Source: a virus (Duplodnaviria > Caudoviricetes). From it: a DNA stretch of 64,000 bases. The stretch covers positions 5,339 to 69,338 of the IMG/VR virus record IMGVR_UViG_3300028886_000088; one strand, given 5' to 3'. Both the position numbers and the translations under genes were made by a program. Position 1 is the first letter of the stretch; each line of letters opens with the position of its first letter. Positions 310 through 64,000 of the stretch are shown here, piece by piece. The notes below the pieces were generated by a model. It did no database searches and was not told where the DNA came from. It saw only the letters and a program-made list of their open reading frames with translations.

Positions 310-555
310 TTGAATTTTAAAACACAAAAAAATAATATGCATAATGAAAATAATATAATGGCATATAGAGAAGAATTAATACAACTTTCTGGGCAAATAA
401 TAAACGGAATAATGTCAGCAGACAATTCAATTATGACCAAACTAGTGGATAGAACATTACACGAAGAAACAGCAAAAAACACTGTTGAATTAGCACATAA
501 AATATTAAAAGAAGGAACTATATACTTGTTGACTCAAAAAATAAATAACAAATGA
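310..555 (+). CDS. hypothetical protein whose 3' end is interrupted by the mini-element
   Basis: Removing 513-758 restores ...LAHKILKEIDKKNEAS* (stop at 784-786); the present tail (GTIYLLTQKINNK) is read from the TIR. Confidence 0.65.
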   Translation: MNFKTQKNNMHNENNIMAYREELIQLSGQIINGIMSADNSIMTKLVDRTLHEETAKNTVELAHKILKEGTIYLLTQKINNK

Positions 556-750
556 AAAAAAAAAATGAAAAATATTTAATTAAAACTTGACTTTTTTTAA
601 TTCATCGTGATATTTATTTATTAAATAAACAATGAATTAAGGCCCGTAGGGAAGCGGGTTTAAGGACGGTGAGGGCAATGCCATTAAGCACCCGATGAAA
701 CGTCAATATAGCAAATCCTCGTTGGTTTAGTCAACAGGTATATAGTTCCC
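513..750 (+). mobile_element. 238-bp non-autonomous TIR element (MITE/MIC-like) carrying only a TnpB omegaRNA
   Basis: TIRs 513-534 (aggaactatatacttgttgact) and 729-750 (agtcaacaggtatatagttccc), 20/22 complementary; exact 8-bp direct repeat ttaaaaga at 505-512 and 751-758. Confidence 0.9.
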
Positions 751-770
751 TTAAAAGAAATAGACAAAAA
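640..770 (+). ncRNA. TnpB omegaRNA, orphan copy; scaffold ~643-750, guide from 751
   Basis: 102/108 nt identical to the RNA downstream of the tnpB at 63488; ATATTTAT motif at 610-617 upstream and a terminator downstream. Confidence 0.8.
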
Positions 771-803
771 AAATGAGGCAAGTTAAACTTGCCCCATTTT
801 TTT
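766..803. terminator. bidirectional intrinsic terminator
   Basis: atgaggcaagt-taa-acttgccccat hairpin flanked by A and T tracts between convergent genes. Confidence 0.7.
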
Positions 804-5615: not shown

Positions 5616-5803
5616 AAAAAAAATGAAACTATATACTAGTTGACACTGCAATTGTTTTTATACAAAATTTAAAAAAATGGCATTAGTTGGATTTAAAAAA
5701 ATTTACTGATGCCATTATTAACAATAATTAACGATTAATATTTTGTTTTTTTTTTATTTTTTTATATATTTGTAATCATAATAAACATTTAATAACTGAA
5801 AAT

Positions 5804-38614: not shown

Positions 38615-38740
38615 TATTATTATATTATATTAGGGAACTATATACTTGTTGACACCAACAAGGTATATAACTTACTGCTTCATAGGGTTCGTAGCCTCTT
38701 CCCTCCACAGTCTCTGAATCCCGCTTCCCTACGGGCTTTT
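38615..38740 (-). ncRNA. TnpB omegaRNA; scaffold ~38735-38633, guide from 38632 leftwards
   Basis: cccgtagggaagcggg 5' hairpin, ctgtggag...atgaagcag core and 3' hairpin ending TAGTTCCC, directly downstream of tnpB. Confidence 0.8.
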
Positions 38741-38760
38741 ATTTTTTGTTATTTTTTATC

Positions 38761-39891
38761 TCATTTAACGCCAACAAGGTTTTGCTTGTCAAACGCAATT
38801 TCCTTGATATTAATTGCTGCGTTTATATCTCTATCATGCCTTGTTCCGCATACTGGACATATCCATTCCCTATTATTTAATAATAAGTCTTTATTGATAT
38901 ATCCGCAATTATGGCATAATTTGCTGCTTGGCTCAAATCTACCAATGAACAGCACATTCTTGCCATACCATTCACTTTTATAAGACAATTGTCTTACAAA
39001 CTCGCTCCATGCAGCACCTTGTATCGCTCTTGCAAGACAATGGTTTTGCTCCATTCCCTTTACATTCAAGTCTTCAAGGCAAATTGCATCATAGTTCATT
39101 ACCAAATGCGTTGATAACTTGTGCAATAAATCACTTCTTTTATTTGCAATTCTTCGATGACATCTTGCAATCTTAACCCTTATTTTCTCATGATTTCTTG
39201 AATCGTTCTTGCTTCTTGCAAATGTTTTCTGCAAATGGGCAAGTTTCTTTTGTACATTTTCAATGTATTTTGGGTTTGAGAACTTGATTCCGTTTGACAA
39301 AGTGGCATAATCCTTTATTCCAAGGTCGACTCCTATTGCATTATCCTTAACCAACTTGGTTTTCGTTGGCTTTTGCTTCAAATCATCAACCGTTATAACA
39401 CACCAATATGTTCCGCAATGGTCTCTGCTTACTGTACAAGTGCCTTGCTTGCAATTTGATTGGTCAAATGTCTTATTCTTGCATAACGCCACTTTTCCCA
39501 ATTTTGGCAACTTTACCGTCCAATTTTCAAAATCAAAGTGAACTGAGTTTATGAATTTGACAGAATTTCTTGTAAATTTCTTTGATTTGAATTTAGGATA
39601 TTGTGCTTTCTTGCGGAAGAATGCAGTAAAAGCATTGTCAAGGCTTCTTAGTGATTGTTGCAATGCCTCTGTTGTGCATTCGTTAAGCCATTCGTGGTCT
39701 TGCTGTTGTTTCAACGATGTCAATTCCTTTGCAAGTTGCACATATCCTACGGCTTTGCCGTTTTCCTTGTAGGCACTTGTTTTTGCGTTCAAGCCCCAAT
39801 TATATATATAACGGACACAACCAAAGAACTTTGACAAAAGTTCCTTTTGTATATCATTTGGTTTTATCTTGTATTTGTAGGCTTTAAGCAT
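38761..39891 (-). CDS. tnpB: RNA-guided endonuclease TnpB with an intact RuvC triad
   Basis: KAYKYKIKP HTH, GVDLGIK, CLEDLNV, FEPSSKLCHNCG, CPVCG and HDRDINAAINI. Confidence 0.95.
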   Translation of the reverse strand: MLKAYKYKIKPNDIQKELLSKFFGCVRYIYNWGLNAKTSAYKENGKAVGYVQLAKELTSLKQQQDHEWLNECTTEALQQSLRSLDNAFTAFFRKKAQYPKFKSKKFTRNSVKFINSVHFDFENWTVKLPKLGKVALCKNKTFDQSNCKQGTCTVSRDHCGTYWCVITVDDLKQKPTKTKLVKDNAIGVDLGIKDYATLSNGIKFSNPKYIENVQKKLAHLQKTFARSKNDSRNHEKIRVKIARCHRRIANKRSDLLHKLSTHLVMNYDAICLEDLNVKGMEQNHCLARAIQGAAWSEFVRQLSYKSEWYGKNVLFIGRFEPSSKLCHNCGYINKDLLLNNREWICPVCGTRHDRDINAAINIKEIAFDKQNLVGVK

Positions 39892-39956
39892 GATATTATT
39901 ATCTTTTTATAATAAATATAACATTAAAGCAAAAAATACAGTTTTTACTATAATTA

Positions 39957-40712
39957 TTAATTTTTTTCTTTAACTTTATCCCAAATTGTTTCTCTTATAT
40001 CATTAATCCAATGGTCATCAATTGCTGAATTGATAATTAAATTGAAAAAAATTTCATTTTGTAATTTTTCCGCTTGTTCAATTTCTTTGCTTGATGCATT
40101 TTCATTATCTAATGTTTCTAAAACATCATAATCCACATCACCAATATCGCATAAAATTGGATTATTTTTATTTCTTTTATAAAATTCATTAAAAGTTGTT
40201 TCTTGGTTTATATCATAATCCATAAACTTATAATTGTACCAACATTCTTTTTCTTCGTCTGACAAATCTTCATTTGTTATACATAACTTATGTCCTATTG
40301 ATTCCAACAATTGCTTATAATAAGCGATAAAATACCCCCAGTGTTCATTATCAAAAATCTCATACCACTTCTCTTGTAAAAAGAATTCTTTTGGTGTTAT
40401 CCGTTCACCACCACCGCTAATATTATATCCTTTTTTAATGTTGGTTGAATCATATTCATCAATCCATTTTTTTTCTGCTTCATTTAACAATTTAATCAAT
40501 TTTGTTGGTTCTTTATCCTCAACCTCTATTGTTTCAATTGTTTCTAATTTTGGCTCACCGTATTTAGCAATTGCTGCTTCACACACACAACAATGTTTGC
40601 GTTTTGATGCTCTCATATGTTGATTATGTCTTTCATTTACTGATGTTCTAGTTTGTCCAATATACACTTTGCCGTTAGGATATGTGTATTTATATATAAA
40701 ACCTCTTTTCAT
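39957..40712 (-). CDS. GIY-YIG endonuclease (Seg-like) with an acidic C-terminal extension
   Basis: GFIYKY....KVYIGQT...R...H, E..WI and GYN motifs. Confidence 0.85.
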   Translation of the reverse strand: MKRGFIYKYTYPNGKVYIGQTRTSVNERHNQHMRASKRKHCCVCEAAIAKYGEPKLETIETIEVEDKEPTKLIKLLNEAEKKWIDEYDSTNIKKGYNISGGGERITPKEFFLQEKWYEIFDNEHWGYFIAYYKQLLESIGHKLCITNEDLSDEEKECWYNYKFMDYDINQETTFNEFYKRNKNNPILCDIGDVDYDVLETLDNENASSKEIEQAEKLQNEIFFNLIINSAIDDHWINDIRETIWDKVKEKN

Positions 40713-40836
40713 AAATTTAAAATTAATGTCAACAAGTATATAGTTCCCTTATATTATTTTAAATAAAAAAGGCTGAATATAATAATACAATATTCAGCCA
40801 AAAAAAAACAAAACTATGGAAAAAACATGAACAAAT

Positions 40837-60048: not shown

Positions 60049-63000
60049 TTAATCTTCCAAATACTTGTCCAACGAATTAATCATATCGTTGAATTCTTCA
60101 TTAATAAGGAAAGCATCGTTATATACTTTCGGACGTTGGGAAATGACTTGTTTTTTATTGTTTTCTGACTTTGAAACAAGTTCGGTTATTAAATTAGTGG
60201 TTTTTTTATTGGATTCCATCATTCCATTTTGTTCTTGACCACCGCTAGCGGCATCTTCTGCTGGCATTTCTCCTTCATTACCACCTATTTCACCGCCTTC
60301 TTCACTTCCAGGCGTTCCAATTGAATCTAATCCGCTTCCAAAATCATCGCCACCGCCCATTGATGGTGGAGGTGGTGCGCCACCGCCTCCCATTGGGCCT
60401 CCACCGCCTTGTTCATCGCCACCTTGTGGTTGTTCTGGATATTGTGCGTTTGGCTCACCGTAAATTCTATCAACGGTGTCGAAAATACCAGTTCTCTTGA
60501 TGATGGCGTTTGTCATTTGCAACTCATTTGCCAATGCCTTTTCAAGTCTGATTTCTTCAAGATTTTCTTGTATTTCCTTGTCACTCCATTTCATTATTTC
60601 CTTTAATGCTCTTGTAATTGACATAATAGGAATACCACCACCAGGGTCAGCAACGGCTGTTTGTATTGCACCAATTTTCTTTGTAATGTTATCAATTTCA
60701 AGTTGTTCTGCTTGTGTTGACGGGTTGGTCATTGACAATGTAAAGTTTGTCAAGTCATCTTCAAAACCCAACAAATACAAATGTATGCTTGCAACCTTGT
60801 TCATTTCCATAAGAAATGCTTGCTGTATTCTGTTGATTGTTCTTGTAAATCTTACATCCATCAAAGCCAAATTTTGACCATTACCCGCAGCATCTTCAAA
60901 ATTCAAGAATGTTTTTGGTATTCTCAAAGCGGTAAGCACTTTGTTTTGAATGTATTTAATATCATCGATTGCTGTAAGGTTTTGTGCTGCTGGCAATGTT
61001 TCAATTGGATTTGCGGCATTAGGGTCTCTTACTGGAATGAAAATATCTTGGTCACAGCAATTGCTAACAAACAAACCGTTTTGATTCCAACTACCATCTG
61101 AGTTTATTGTACAAAGGGCAAAATTGTGTCTATCTTCCTCGCCATTTAGACCTACAACAGTCATACAATATACATCATCACCTCCAATTATTTCTATATT
61201 TTTAATTGTATGGTTTTTAAGTGATTCCGTTATGTATTCAGATATTGTAGCAAAACCCTTTTCTCTTATTCTGTTTTCTAGAACTTCTCTTGAAATAAAA
61301 TGATTGTGTTCCAATCTTTTATTATCATTTATTGAAATTAAATAATCAATTAAATTGGTATTGATATATTCAAGCAATTCCTTGCGTTTGGTAATTCTAT
61401 GTGACAATATTTCATTTAAAATTGAATCCCATATAAAATCATCAAAATGAATATTCATTTTTTGTGTTCTGTTTGTTCTACCGTCACCAATCCAACTATT
61501 TTTGCTTGCAATTTTTCTTATTTCGTCATGCTTTTTGTGTAATTCCGAATTGTTATATTCTTCAAAATCTTTCCTATATCCAATTTCTAACCCTTTTTCT
61601 CTTCTTAACTGTTTTGTTGTTTCTAATTTATTATATTCGATGATTTGTTTTTTATTAATTTCTTTAATATAATCTAATTCACCATTACCATATTTAATTT
61701 TTAAAGTATTCGAAATATTTTGCTTATGTATTGGTGATATTATTCTCCCTTTTAATGATTTTTTTAAGTTTTCAATGTGTTTTTGCCTTTTTTCTTCATC
61801 TTTCCAATTTCTTTTTGCTAATTCAGAATGCATTTTATGGTGTTCAAAATAGTCACACCATAATAAATTAGTTGGTTCGTTATTGTATTTGTTGAAATCT
61901 TTATGATGAATTGTATTATATTCAGCATTTTCTTTCGCAACATTTTCACCAATTAAACGATGTGTAAATTCAAATTTGCCGCTATTTGGATTATATATTT
62001 GTTCATACCTATCAAATAATTTTTGACTATTTTTGTCAATTTTTCTATAAAACGGCATTACACTTTCTCCAATAATAACTTCATCAGCACGTTTTTTCGA
62101 ACCATCACGCATAATCAATTCATGTTCTGGTGCCATTATGCAATGAGTGTCATCATCCAATGTAATTTTAACAAGTTTATCTGCGGTATAATTTTTACCA
62201 CACCACACAACTTTTCCTGGAACAATTTTATGTGTTTTGTCTTGAATTGAATAGACATAGTTTGTTTTACCACTGTTGAATTCTTTTGCTAATTCTTCAA
62301 TGGTAATTGTTCTTCCATCCAATAATGGTATTGGTGTATCTTTGTGTACTGGCATAATGTTTTTTCTTAAATCAATTTGACCAGTCATTGGGTCTATAAT
62401 AGGAGTTCTTTTGAAATTGTTTGCTATATCTTCAACATATGCTTGAACATCAGCATCGTCAATTGCACCAACATAAATTTTATAGACTCTTCTTTCAATT
62501 GACCTTTCAAGACGATAAATAAGCATCATATCTTCCATAAGGGATAACAATCTCCAGTGTCTTCTCGCTGAATTTAATGCACTTACGCCATAAGGTAGAT
62601 ACATTGAGTTGTTTATCAATCTGAAATGAGCGATTTGCCAATTTCTAAAAGGTACTTGTGTATTTGTTTCATCTGTCCAAACAAACCTTGTTGCGGTATC
62701 TGCATCTTGTTTGTTATTCATAGGAATTGTAAATGCTTGACCACCATATGGATTTGTAATACCGTTTTCAAGTCTTTCAACATTGAATACTGGAAGTTGT
62801 CTCCACCCCATTACACCATTTTTATTATCAATGTTCAAAAGCATGAATTGGTTTCCATATTTGCACATTCCACGAATAATCATTTGTGACATTACTTGTA
62901 TGTCAAGACGATTTACAAACAAATCTTCAAGAATAGCCTTTATTCTTTCTGATTTGGATGAAACAGTAATTACTTGACCGTGATTGTCAGTAAGTACGGA

Positions 63001-63333
63001 TTCTTCTGCGTATATATCCAATGCAGCACCTATTTCTGGAAAAGCATCCATAAGGTCTGCGTCACGATACATCAATTTTACATTGTTCAAACCAGCAAAT
63101 GCTTGAACAGACAAGTCTTGATTAGCCTTTATCCATCTGTCCTTTAACCAAGCATTTTGCTGTAATTCCAATTTCTTTTTTTCGTATTCGTTCTTGTCAG
63201 TTGTTCTGAATAATACTTTATTTGGGTTTGATAAGTCATAATTGTTGTTATGTTTTTGTGTATTACCAAAATTCCAATCACCAGTTAAAGCACCATCCAA
63301 ATTCTGAAATACTGTTTTAATATTGTTTGGCAT
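60049..63333 (-). CDS. portal protein (T4 gp20-like) containing an intein
   Basis: L.L.EDMMLIYRLERSIERRVYKIYVG, DQDIFIPVR, IETLP..QNL..IDDIKY..KV..ALRIPK. Confidence 0.92.
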   Translation of the reverse strand: MPNNIKTVFQNLDGALTGDWNFGNTQKHNNNYDLSNPNKVLFRTTDKNEYEKKKLELQQNAWLKDRWIKANQDLSVQAFAGLNNVKLMYRDADLMDAFPEIGAALDIYAEESVLTDNHGQVITVSSKSERIKAILEDLFVNRLDIQVMSQMIIRGMCKYGNQFMLLNIDNKNGVMGWRQLPVFNVERLENGITNPYGGQAFTIPMNNKQDADTATRFVWTDETNTQVPFRNWQIAHFRLINNSMYLPYGVSALNSARRHWRLLSLMEDMMLIYRLERSIERRVYKIYVGAIDDADVQAYVEDIANNFKRTPIIDPMTGQIDLRKNIMPVHKDTPIPLLDGRTITIEELAKEFNSGKTNYVYSIQDKTHKIVPGKVVWCGKNYTADKLVKITLDDDTHCIMAPEHELIMRDGSKKRADEVIIGESVMPFYRKIDKNSQKLFDRYEQIYNPNSGKFEFTHRLIGENVAKENAEYNTIHHKDFNKYNNEPTNLLWCDYFEHHKMHSELAKRNWKDEEKRQKHIENLKKSLKGRIISPIHKQNISNTLKIKYGNGELDYIKEINKKQIIEYNKLETTKQLRREKGLEIGYRKDFEEYNNSELHKKHDEIRKIASKNSWIGDGRTNRTQKMNIHFDDFIWDSILNEILSHRITKRKELLEYINTNLIDYLISINDNKRLEHNHFISREVLENRIREKGFATISEYITESLKNHTIKNIEIIGGDDVYCMTVVGLNGEEDRHNFALCTINSDGSWNQNGLFVSNCCDQDIFIPVRDPNAANPIETLPAAQNLTAIDDIKYIQNKVLTALRIPKTFLNFEDAAGNGQNLALMDVRFTRTINRIQQAFLMEMNKVASIHLYLLGFEDDLTNFTLSMTNPSTQAEQLEIDNITKKIGAIQTAVADPGGGIPIMSITRALKEIMKWSDKEIQENLEEIRLEKALANELQMTNAIIKRTGIFDTVDRIYGEPNAQYPEQPQGGDEQGGGGPMGGGGAPPPPSMGGGDDFGSGLDSIGTPGSEEGGEIGGNEGEMPAEDAASGGQEQNGMMESNKKTTNLITELVSKSENNKKQVISQRPKVYNDAFLINEEFNDMINSLDKYLED
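61060..62352 (-). mobile_element. 431-aa intein with an HNH homing endonuclease (Pro328-Asn758 of the portal ORF)
   Basis: PVHKDTPIPLLDG block A, APEH block B, HHKDFNKYNNEPTNL HNH, VYCMTV...HNF block F, GLFVSN/C block G. Confidence 0.88.
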
Positions 63334-63343
63334 AATTTTTTTC

Positions 63344-63472
63344 GTTTACAATTATATAAAAGGGAACTATATACCTGTTGACTAAACCAACGAGGATTTG
63401 CTATATTGACGTTTCATAGGGTGTCCAATGACATTGCCCTCACCGCCCTTAAACCCGCTTCCCTACGGGTCT
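63344..63472 (-). ncRNA. TnpB omegaRNA; scaffold 63469-63362, guide from 63361 leftwards
   Basis: Downstream of tnpB; 94% identical to 643-750 with a compensatory C-G/T-A pair. Confidence 0.8.
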
Positions 63473-64000
63473 TTATTAATTATTTTTTTATATTCCTATC
63501 AAATTCTGTTTGTGAAGGGCAAAATCCCTTATGTTTATTGCAGCATTAACATCCCTATCATGCTTTTCTCCGCATTTGGGACAAACCCATTCACGGTCAT
63601 TAAGTTGCAAGTCAGTCTTGACATATCCGCATTTGCTACATGTCTTGCTGCTTGGTTCAAATCTGCCAATGAATATCACATTCTTGCCATACCAATCACT
63701 CTTGTACTTCAGTTGCCTTACAAACTCACTCCATGCTGCACTCTGTATGCTGTTGGATAGATGTTTGTTTTTCATCATACCTTCAACGTTAAGGTCTTCC
63801 AAACATATTGTGTCATATTGTTTCGTCAACATTGATGATAATTTATGTAAGAAATCACTCCTGCGGTTTGCAATGTCCCTATGATACTTTGCGACTTTCA
63901 ATCTTAATGCTTCATGTCTGTTGGAATTCTTCTGTGTTCTTGCAAACCTCTGTTGGAGCGTTTTAAGTCTTTTCTTGCATTTTTCCAAGAACTTTGGATT
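63362..64000 (-). mobile_element. third copy of the TIR/TnpB element (partial; other end outside the window)
   Basis: TIR gggaactatatacctgttgact at 63362-63383, omegaRNA and tnpB 3' part. Confidence 0.85.
63488..64000 (-). CDS. tnpB: TnpB, C-terminal part (5' end beyond the window)
   Basis: CLEDLNV, FEPSSKTCSKCG, CPKCG and HDRDVNAAINI. Confidence 0.92.
   Translation of the reverse strand, partial: NPKFLEKCKKRLKTLQQRFARTQKNSNRHEALRLKVAKYHRDIANRRSDFLHKLSSMLTKQYDTICLEDLNVEGMMKNKHLSNSIQSAAWSEFVRQLKYKSDWYGKNVIFIGRFEPSSKTCSKCGYVKTDLQLNDREWVCPKCGEKHDRDVNAAINIRDFALHKQNLIGI

What the first reader, a model, noticed from the sequence alone, without database searches (positions are those of the whole stretch)
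505..803. 238-bp guide-only mini-element: a promoter-bearing omegaRNA with no protein, inserted in a gene
Seen: TIRs at 513-534 and 729-750 with an 8-bp TSD (TTAAAAGA). Removing the element restores a natural ORF end (LKEIDKKNEAS*). Inside are an ATATTTAT motif (610), a residual ATG-AAT-TAA (632) fused directly to a 108-nt scaffold 102/108 identical to that of the element at 63362, and a terminator follows the guide. Inference: internal deletion left a minimal RNA parasite that could load the 63488 TnpB in trans with a new guide (TTAAAAGAAATAGAC...). The phage would then run a multiplexed, CRISPR-array-free set of guides.
Basis: partly seen in the sequence, partly recalled or inferred. Interest (0 to 1): 0.85.

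Follow-up and report, generated by a model that had tools for sequence, protein, structure and literature searches.

The report
Nuclease-less TnpB guide-RNA mini-transposon in phage
A giant phage carries a 238-bp jumping element that has lost its RNA-guided nuclease gene (tnpB) but keeps that gene's promoter region joined to an intact guide-RNA scaffold. The anatomy is real and its origin can be traced, but stand-alone guides of this kind are already described, so this is a tidy new variant and not a new principle.

Summary
Window 513-750 is a 238-bp element with inverted ends (22 of 24 bases) and an exact 8-bp duplication, TTAAAAGA. It sits in the 3' end of a small gene. A natural relative (L168) carries the unoccupied allele with one TTAAAAGA and the predicted protein end.

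The ends and the 8-bp duplication belong to an IS1595-family DDE transposon. Transposase-bearing copies with the same ends occur in other giant phages. None is present in this 69-kb fragment.

The parent is a 1362-bp element with the layout end, tnpB, omegaRNA, end (L240). Its TnpB is 96% identical to the copy at 63488. The mini equals the parent minus the tnpB reading frame, deleted between two 7-bp direct repeats (ATGAATT). The deletion places a phage promoter-type motif (ATATTTAT) 24 nt upstream of the scaffold.

The roughly 110-nt scaffold is intact. Eighteen relatives support its stems and a pseudoknot to the last 5 nt of the transposon end, so the guide starts at the duplication.

Expression, loading by TnpB in trans and cleavage of the empty site are inferred, not shown. 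Only one copy was found.

Stand-alone omegaRNAs, PATEs and DDE-linked TnpBs are published. This scan has also noted a similar IS1595 mini-element in another giant phage (e1-5618670).

The parts
310..512 (+). 5' part of the interrupted small gene; it continues at 759-786 once the element and one TSD copy are removed
   Evidence: ORF list. Homologues P0002-P0009 of 58-83 aa have an uninterrupted C-terminus.
505..512 (.). left copy of the 8-bp target-site duplication TTAAAAGA
   Evidence: the empty allele L168 has a single copy
513..537 (+). left terminal inverted repeat (IS1595-type end)
   Evidence: the same end flanks elements that carry an IS1595 transposase
538..586 (+). left subterminal region, homologous to the left end of the parent element L240
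587..617 (+). conserved tnpB-upstream block: TTGACT, 16 nt, GATATT, with ATATTTAT at 610-617; candidate promoter
   Evidence: nearly identical in L240. Across the window, 15 of 34 ATATTTAT copies lie 17-25 nt upstream of start codons.
632..638 (+). deletion junction ATGAATT. The parent has this 7-mer both just upstream of the tnpB ATG and just downstream of the tnpB stop.
642..750 (+). omegaRNA scaffold. Hairpin 1 is 642-659. Stem 2 pairs 665-668 with 701-704 and 672-675 with 691-694. Stem 3 pairs 717-725 with 731-738. The pseudoknot pairs 649-653 with 746-750.
   Evidence: CM R1 scores 131 bits; covariation on 18 sequences
726..750 (+). right terminal inverted repeat; also forms the 3' arm of stem 3 and the 3' strand of the pseudoknot
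751..770 (+). predicted guide: the right TSD copy (751-758) plus flanking host-gene sequence
   Evidence: Position directly 3' of the scaffold. It matches the empty allele in L168 exactly. It has no other perfect match in the window.
777..803 (.). host gene's intrinsic-terminator-like hairpin, shared with the convergent gene 783-1346; it is outside the element
   Evidence: also present in the empty allele L168
63362..64000 (-). closest full-length relative in the same genome: omegaRNA 63362-63476 and the tnpB 3' part 63488-64000, cut off by the contig end
   Evidence: The same locus in a 392,833-bp assembly has an intact 374-aa TnpB.
38633..40748 (-). second, more distant element: end, GIY-YIG-like gene, tnpB (376 aa), omegaRNA, end, with TSD TTATATTA

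Best explanation
SHOWN. Window 513-750 is a non-autonomous miniature derivative of a phage-borne IS1595-family (DDE) transposon that carries TnpB and its omegaRNA as cargo. It inserted into the 3' end of a small gene and made an 8-bp duplication. It descends from a 1.36-kb element with the layout end, tnpB, omegaRNA, end. A deletion between two 7-bp direct repeats removed only the tnpB reading frame. That fused the tnpB upstream region, which holds a phage promoter-type motif, to a complete omegaRNA scaffold. The scaffold's last 5 nt are the tip of the transposon end and pair with the loop of the first hairpin. The guide therefore begins at the duplicated target and reads into the host gene. 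INFERRED. The RNA is made from its own promoter block, or by read-through from the co-oriented host gene. It is processed and loaded in trans by the 374-aa TnpB encoded beside the portal gene, whose own scaffold is 102/109 identical. The complex would cut the unoccupied allele (TSD plus downstream flank) in sister or co-infecting genomes. Recombinational repair would then copy the mini-element back in, which is homing or retention at no coding cost. Movement to new sites needs an IS1595-type transposase supplied in trans.
For: TIR, TSD and the empty site. IS1595 link: elements with the same ends carry PF12762 plus PF12760 transposases and 8-bp TSDs, and 7 of 11 complete TnpB elements have perfect 8-bp TSDs of the form T-N6-A. 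Parent and deletion junction. Scaffold: CM hits. On 18 sequences 87% of cells pair, 15 pairs show changes on both sides, and slid-partner controls give 31-49%. The pseudoknot was not part of the model, yet it covaries at its middle pair (GC 10, CG 3, UA 2, AU 1, UG 1). The geometry matches the 116-nt ISDra2 scaffold, whose pseudoknot pairs -5..-3 with about -104 and whose 5' extension is dispensable (PMC10097598). The 5 substitutions private to the mini fall in the stem-2 loop (4) or turn a G-U pair into A-U (1). Promoter motif. A compatible intact TnpB is in the same phage. The guide equals the natural empty allele. Precedent that stand-alone omegaRNAs work in trans: PMC10691335; PATEs: PMC10055086.
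Against: Only one copy is known, and no second copy with the same geometry was found in JGI metagenomes. Retention of the whole scaffold is not statistically surprising for deletions of this size; my estimate is about 0.5 by chance. Absence of pair-breaking private changes is weak evidence (p about 0.07-0.2). No shared TAM could be derived: the 5 nt upstream of the TSDs are only A-rich. DDE excision leaves a break and not a clean joint, so the 'retention' half of the model is less natural than for IS200/IS605. Another orphan scaffold (L021/L263) has lost its left end and its core stem, which shows that such remnants can simply decay.
Confidence: 0.5

Rival explanations
1. Inert deletion derivative. 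This would be an ordinary dead MITE whose omegaRNA segment survives only because the deletion was recent and happened to stop upstream of it. The RNA, if made at all, would have no role.
For: A single copy in 69 kb, and none elsewhere with this geometry. Chance retention of the scaffold is plausible, and the selection signal is weak. The L021/L263 orphan scaffold is decaying. Elements with the same ends move without any scaffold (L022, L023), so the scaffold is not needed for mobility.
Against: All stems and the pseudoknot are intact, and the private changes avoid pair disruption. The promoter block is kept nearly identical to the parent. A second independent derivative that keeps the scaffold has a fresh TSD (L127). 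A cognate TnpB is present in the same genome. Published stand-alone omegaRNAs are active in trans.
Confidence: 0.38
2. The RNA is made and binds TnpB but serves another end. It might be a decoy that titrates TnpB away from full-length elements. Or it might direct non-cleaving binding that modulates the convergent downstream genes.
For: Programmable repression by TnpB relatives is known (TldR; PMC10705468, listed). The guide covers the shared terminator region of two convergent genes.
Against: The guide's only perfect match in this genome is its own flank, next to the transposon end and not next to a free upstream flank. The TnpBs here keep the RuvC D/E/D motifs, as read from the translations.
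Confidence: 0.08
3. Assembly artefact or chance repeat.
For: Repeats break assemblies here: the contig ends inside the 63488 tnpB, and L169 ends inside the scaffold.
Against: The same insertion is seen in independent assemblies (L169, and protein P0001 on four contigs including a 392,833-bp one). Both filled and empty alleles exist. The TIR count is 6 against 0.01 expected.
Confidence: 0.01

Closest known systems
Stand-alone omegaRNAs of OMEGA systems (Altae-Tran et al. 2021, as summarised in PMC10691335)
   Same: A mobilised omegaRNA with no effector or transposase gene, sitting in a genome that also holds a compatible effector. Published examples function in trans.
   Different: This one sits between DDE-type inverted ends with an 8-bp TSD, inside a giant phage. 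It has a traceable parent, a defined deletion junction, a retained promoter block and a natural empty allele. Activity was not tested.
PATEs of IS200/IS605 that encode omegaRNAs (Meers et al. 2023, PMC10055086)
   Same: Protein-less miniature derivatives that keep both transposon ends and the guide RNA, and depend on TnpA and TnpB in trans.
   Different: PATEs have subterminal hairpins, no TIRs and no TSD, and move as single strands by a Y1 HUH transposase. This element has TIRs plus a TSD and is linked to an IS1595 DDE transposase.
DDE-transposase-associated and solo TnpBs with inverted terminal repeats (branches DDE-1 to DDE-6; Altae-Tran et al. 2023, PMC10691335)
   Same: tnpB lies within 250 bp of a symmetric transposon end. 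Solo tnpB elements share ends with transposase-bearing elements and are presumably mobilised in trans.
   Different: The main text of that paper names only IS630 (it does not contain 'IS1595'), and a 2026 review (PMC13565253) summarises its partners as ISL2, IS630 and IS1031. I could not see its supplementary files. The object here is the nuclease-less derivative.
Fanzor and its omegaRNA in eukaryotic DDE transposons
   Same: The guide RNA's 3' end overlaps the TIR, and the guide reads the TSD and flank.
   Different: This is a prokaryotic-type 374-376-aa TnpB in a bacteriophage. There is no Fanzor-specific protein extension.
ISDra2 TnpB omegaRNA (PMC10097598)
   Same: A scaffold of about 110-116 nt with a pseudoknot between the nucleotides just 5' of the guide and a site about 100 nt upstream. 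Sequence further 5' is dispensable.
   Different: No detectable sequence similarity and no Rfam match. The 3' strand of the pseudoknot is the tip of a DDE-type TIR.

Membership tests
TnpB omegaRNA (OMEGA guide RNA) | Lies directly 3' of tnpB and abuts the transposon end in full-length relatives | tested here: met
   In tnpB-linked relatives (window 63362 and 38633, L240, L132, L187 and the loci fetched as TnpB relatives) the scaffold follows the tnpB stop and ends at the TIR tip.
TnpB omegaRNA (OMEGA guide RNA) | Conserved secondary structure with a guide-adjacent pseudoknot | tested here: met
   87% of cells paired, 15 covarying pairs, and slid controls of 31-49%. The pseudoknot was not in the model and still covaries.
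TnpB omegaRNA (OMEGA guide RNA) | Transcribed, bound by TnpB and able to direct TAM-dependent cleavage | not testable with these tools
There is no RNA-protein tool. A TAM could not be derived.
TnpB omegaRNA (OMEGA guide RNA) | Match to a curated Rfam family | tested here: not met
   No Rfam 15 family reached its gathering score anywhere in the window. This shows only that this scaffold type is not curated.
IS1595 family transposon (non-autonomous member) | Autonomous members with the same ends encode a DDE_Tnp_IS1595 transposase with an N-terminal zinc ribbon | tested here: met
   L023/L309 has PF12762 at 5e-45 and PF12760 at 2e-10, between ends of which one is identical to the 63362 end in all 21 bases scanned. 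Further copies are L311-L315.
IS1595 family transposon (non-autonomous member) | Terminal inverted repeats and an 8-bp target duplication | tested here: met
   That the family makes 8-bp duplications is from my recollection of ISfinder and Siguier et al. 2009, which I did not re-read here.
IS1595 family transposon (non-autonomous member) | A cognate transposase is available in the same genome | tested here: not met
   No PF12762 match in the 69-kb record or in the complete 392,823-bp relative G001. The full genome of this phage could not be read.
MITE | Short, TIR-bounded, TSD-flanked, with no coding capacity | tested here: met
   238 bp, and only short ORFs that match no gene
MITE | Amplified to multiple copies | tested here: not met
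   One copy in the record and no copy with the same geometry in JGI metagenomes
PATE (IS200/IS605 miniature) | Subterminal hairpins, no TIR and no TSD, insertion 3' of a fixed TAM | tested here: not met
   TIRs and an 8-bp TSD are present. It works like a PATE but is not one.

The most novel reading that the evidence does not exclude
Giant phages may host a two-tier parasite system. In it, IS1595-type ends move cassettes, TnpB acts as a homing engine between co-infecting phage genomes, and promoter-plus-guide mini-cassettes free-ride on that engine. Each new insertion would add a guide against the matching empty allele of competitor phages. That would amount to a dispersed, array-free guide set used in phage-versus-phage interference.
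Probability: 0.25. Interest if true: 0.75.

Novelty: new variant of a known kind. Interest (0 to 1): 0.5.

Why it matters
This is a natural, minimal 'promoter plus guide scaffold' cassette whose history can be read base by base. The record includes the parent element, the 7-bp microhomology that deleted the nuclease gene, both filled and empty alleles, and a guide that matches the empty allele exactly. It extends stand-alone omegaRNAs from IS200/IS605 to cut-and-paste (IS1595-type) carriers in giant phages. In these carriers one 5-nt tip of the transposon end must serve both the transposase and the RNA pseudoknot. It also gives a concrete, cheap test system for two questions: whether TnpB works with TSD-derived guides, and what TAM such a system uses. 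The test system is the 374-aa TnpB, the 238-bp cassette and the L168 target.

Tried and rejected
- Rfam scan of the whole window: no family.
- GenBank phage DNA search around the site: no match.
- TnpB protein against GenBank phages: only relatives below 60% identity.
- Relatives of the convergent neighbour gene in IMG/VR: none.
- Pattern GAGGG, 13-15 nt, CCCTATGAA in IMG/VR, and the hairpin-1 16-mer in metagenomes: mostly chance hits, which had to be filtered by regular expression and CM.
- Pattern for further mini copies (left end, 100-130 nt, hairpin 1) in metagenomes: 0 hits.
- Pattern ATGAARC, gap, end: 3 hits, 2 of them chance.
- RNAalifold on a raw MAFFT alignment found only hairpin 1, because a 2-nt loop-length difference misaligned stem 2. 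A CM-guided alignment solved this.
- Single-sequence folding z-scores are unremarkable (-0.1 to -1.4). The structure rests on covariation and not on energy.
- TAM inference from 7 TSD-bearing elements: only an A-rich flank with A at -1 in 6 of 7, which is not distinguishable from base composition.
- Rejected: 'ATG-AAT-TAA is a tnpB remnant'.
- Rejected: 'the GIY-YIG gene is the transposase'. Parent-type elements lack it, and elements bearing an IS1595 transposase share the ends.
- Rejected: a PATE or IS200/IS605 affiliation (TIRs plus TSD).

Full report
1. OBSERVATION.

The window is bases 5339-69338 of a 69,338-bp IMG/VR virus record rated about 20% complete.

At 514-537 and 726-749 there are inverted arms, 22 of 24 bases complementary. 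The 20-nt core of this end occurs six times in the window against 0.01 expected from shuffles. The sites are both ends of the mini, both ends of an element at 38633-40748, one end at 63362, and a degenerate solo copy at 5625.

TTAAAAGA flanks the mini on both sides, at 505-512 and 751-758. With 30% G+C a chance 8-mer match is about 5e-5.

Deleting the element and one repeat copy restores a frame ending LKEIDKKNEAS-stop (sequence). A protein search with the N-terminal 68 residues found eight homologues other than the window's own protein, 58-83 aa long. The closest (94% identical) ends LKEIDKKNGAS. Its contig L168 shows the unoccupied site at the DNA level, with a single TTAAAAGA and the same terminator. 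An independent Logan assembly (L169) carries the identical insertion.

The insertion is therefore real. It is a transposition with an 8-bp duplication, and both alleles exist in nature.

2. THE CARRIER TRANSPOSON.

A scan of IMG/VR for the end sequence gave ten loci.

In L023 (= L309) the same ends enclose a 307-aa protein with the IS1595 DDE domain (PF12762, 5e-45) and the IS1595 zinc ribbon (PF12760). The element is flanked by an 8-bp duplication; one end matches the 63362 end in all 21 bases scanned. Relatives of that transposase in other giant-phage contigs, up to 412 kb, sit between ends of the same family. Perfect 8-bp duplications are seen in L312 and L315.

Other elements with these ends carry unrelated cargo. 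L022 is a 378-bp element with a 107-aa ORF.

No IS1595 transposase is present in this 69-kb record. None is present in a complete 392,823-bp relative that holds four tnpB genes. The tnpB elements are therefore non-autonomous and must be moved in trans.

Of eleven tnpB/omegaRNA elements with both ends in hand, seven have perfect 8-bp duplications. All seven start with T, and six end with A.

3. THE PARENT AND THE DELETION.

The partial TnpB at 63488-64000 is 96% identical to the 374-aa TnpB of metagenome locus L240. It is only 63% identical to the window's other TnpB at 38761.

L240 is a 1362-bp element with the layout end, tnpB, scaffold, end. In a 392,833-bp assembly that encodes the same portal protein, the gene beside the portal is an intact 374-aa TnpB with all three Pfam domains (gene table only, no DNA).

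The mini's left 125 nt align with L240 from the end up to 5 nt before the tnpB ATG. Its right part aligns from about 10 nt after the tnpB stop to the other end. In L240 both breakpoints carry ATGAATT, and the mini has one copy, at 632-638. So a microhomology deletion removed the reading frame and almost nothing else.

A second, independent derivative exists (L127). It is 502 bp with a perfect TSD, and it keeps only the last 95 codons of tnpB plus the scaffold.

4. THE RNA.

A covariance model built from six scaffolds finds the mini at 131 bits, the 63362 copy at 135 bits and the 38633 copy at 75 bits. It finds 18 scaffolds across the loci.

On the model-guided alignment, 87% of cells form standard pairs and 15 of 26 pairs show changes on both sides. 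Sliding the partners by 1-3 columns drops pairing to 31-49%.

The outer stem 2 pairs in 100% of cells, in forms such as GGCG/CGUC, ACUG/CAGU, GCUG/CAGC and AAUG/CAUU.

A pseudoknot was not part of the model, so the alignment could not favour it. It joins the loop of hairpin 1 (GGGAA) to the last five bases of the element (TTCCC). Its middle pair occurs as G-C, C-G, U-A, A-U and U-G.

This layout mirrors the ISDra2 omegaRNA. That RNA has a 116-nt scaffold, its pseudoknot joins -5..-3 to about -104, and its 5' extension inside tnpB is dispensable (PMC10097598).

Two consequences follow. The scaffold ends exactly at the transposon tip, so the guide is the TSD plus the flank (751 to about 770). 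And the mini keeps the whole functional equivalent of a scaffold.

The mini differs from the 63362 copy at 7 of 109 positions. Five changes are private to it. Four lie in the apical loop of stem 2, and one turns a G-U pair into A-U. That is compatible with constraint but weak, at p of about 0.07-0.2 by my estimate.

Another orphan scaffold (L021 = L263) has no left end and has lost the GGG/CCC stem. It is a decaying remnant.

5. EXPRESSION SIGNALS.

The block 587-617 is nearly identical in L240. It scores as TTGACT, 16 nt, GATATT (9 of 12 matches; not significant on its own).

ATATTTAT occurs 34 times in the window against 19.5 expected, and no shuffle of 100 reached 34. Fifteen of the 34 copies lie 17-25 nt upstream of predicted starts on the same strand. 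That is the highest fraction among 56 same-composition permutations, 44% against a mean of 13%. One of these copies precedes tnpB at 38761.

In the mini the motif ends 24 nt before hairpin 1.

The element is also co-oriented with the interrupted gene, so read-through transcripts would contain the scaffold. TnpB is known to process its own mRNA into omegaRNA (PMC10278001, title and abstract).

The hairpin at 777-803 is the host gene's terminator and is present in the empty allele too.

6. MECHANISM AND ITS LIMITS.

The most likely reading is a stand-alone guide cassette served in trans by the TnpB next to the portal gene. The guide matches the natural empty allele perfectly over 20 nt. It has no other perfect target in the window. 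At its own locus the position of the TAM is occupied by the transposon tip, which gives a simple way to avoid self-targeting.

I could not show transcription, binding or cleavage. I could not derive a TAM: the five bases upstream of seven TSDs share only A-richness. Retention of the scaffold is not improbable for deletions of this size. Only one copy is known. I therefore put the functional reading at about 0.5 and the inert-remnant reading at just under 0.4.

7. COMPARISON WITH WHAT IS KNOWN.

Stand-alone omegaRNAs that lack effector and transposase, and that work in trans, are published (PMC10691335). So are omegaRNA-bearing PATEs (PMC10055086). So are DDE-associated and solo TnpBs between inverted ends (PMC10691335; review PMC13565253).

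A full-text search for TnpB together with IS1595 gave nine papers. Judged from their titles and abstracts, none describes this association. The PNAS main text does not name IS1595, and I could not read its supplement.

Within this scan, similar objects were already noted on other DNA: e1-5618670, e1-5251824 and e1-5476579. No look-alike sequence is on record.

Verdict: real, well resolved and instructive, but a new variant of a known kind.

Noticed in passing
window 5625-5644 (minus-strand match): A solo copy of the transposon end with 2 mismatches, directly after a gene stop. No partner end lies within reach. It may be the remnant of another element.
   Followed up: partly
window 39957-40712 (minus strand): A 251-aa GIY-YIG-like homing-endonuclease gene (PHROG 7168, 4e-11; no Pfam hit) sits between the left end and tnpB of the 38633-40748 element. 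Parent-type elements (L240, L032, L034, L132) lack it, so it is an added passenger and not the transposase.
   Followed up: partly
window-wide; for example 3036, 24241, 27777, 39912(-), 46177, 49797: ATATTTAT lies 17-25 nt upstream of 15 predicted start codons (34 copies against 19.5 expected). It is a strong candidate for a phage promoter element.
   Followed up: partly
L127:8073-8574: A 502-bp derivative of the same element family with a perfect TSD (TAAAGTTA). It keeps only the last 95 codons of tnpB plus an intact scaffold, and is a second nuclease-less carrier of a guide.
   Followed up: partly
L021:2902-3016 (= L263): An orphan scaffold plus right end lies directly after a 305-aa non-TnpB gene. 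There is no left end in 13 kb, and the GGG/CCC stem is destroyed. It is a decaying remnant.
   Followed up: partly
L022:607-985: A 378-bp element with the same ends and an 8-bp repeat, offset by one base at the right end, carries a 107-aa ORF. The ORF matches the C-terminal domain of many PHROG families of unknown function. The same ends therefore shuttle unrelated small cargo.
   Followed up: no
L224:635-788: A scaffold of this family with an insertion of about 40 nt in the stem-3 region, on a 1-kb contig.
   Followed up: no
L240, L033, L034, L035 element flanks: Four of eleven complete tnpB elements have no TSD. This could reflect recombination between copies, or acquisition by homing and not by transposition.
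   Followed up: no
window 60049-63333 (minus strand): The portal gene (T4-type) is interrupted by an intein (PF14890). The 63362 element's end lies 29 nt upstream of its start codon.
   Followed up: no
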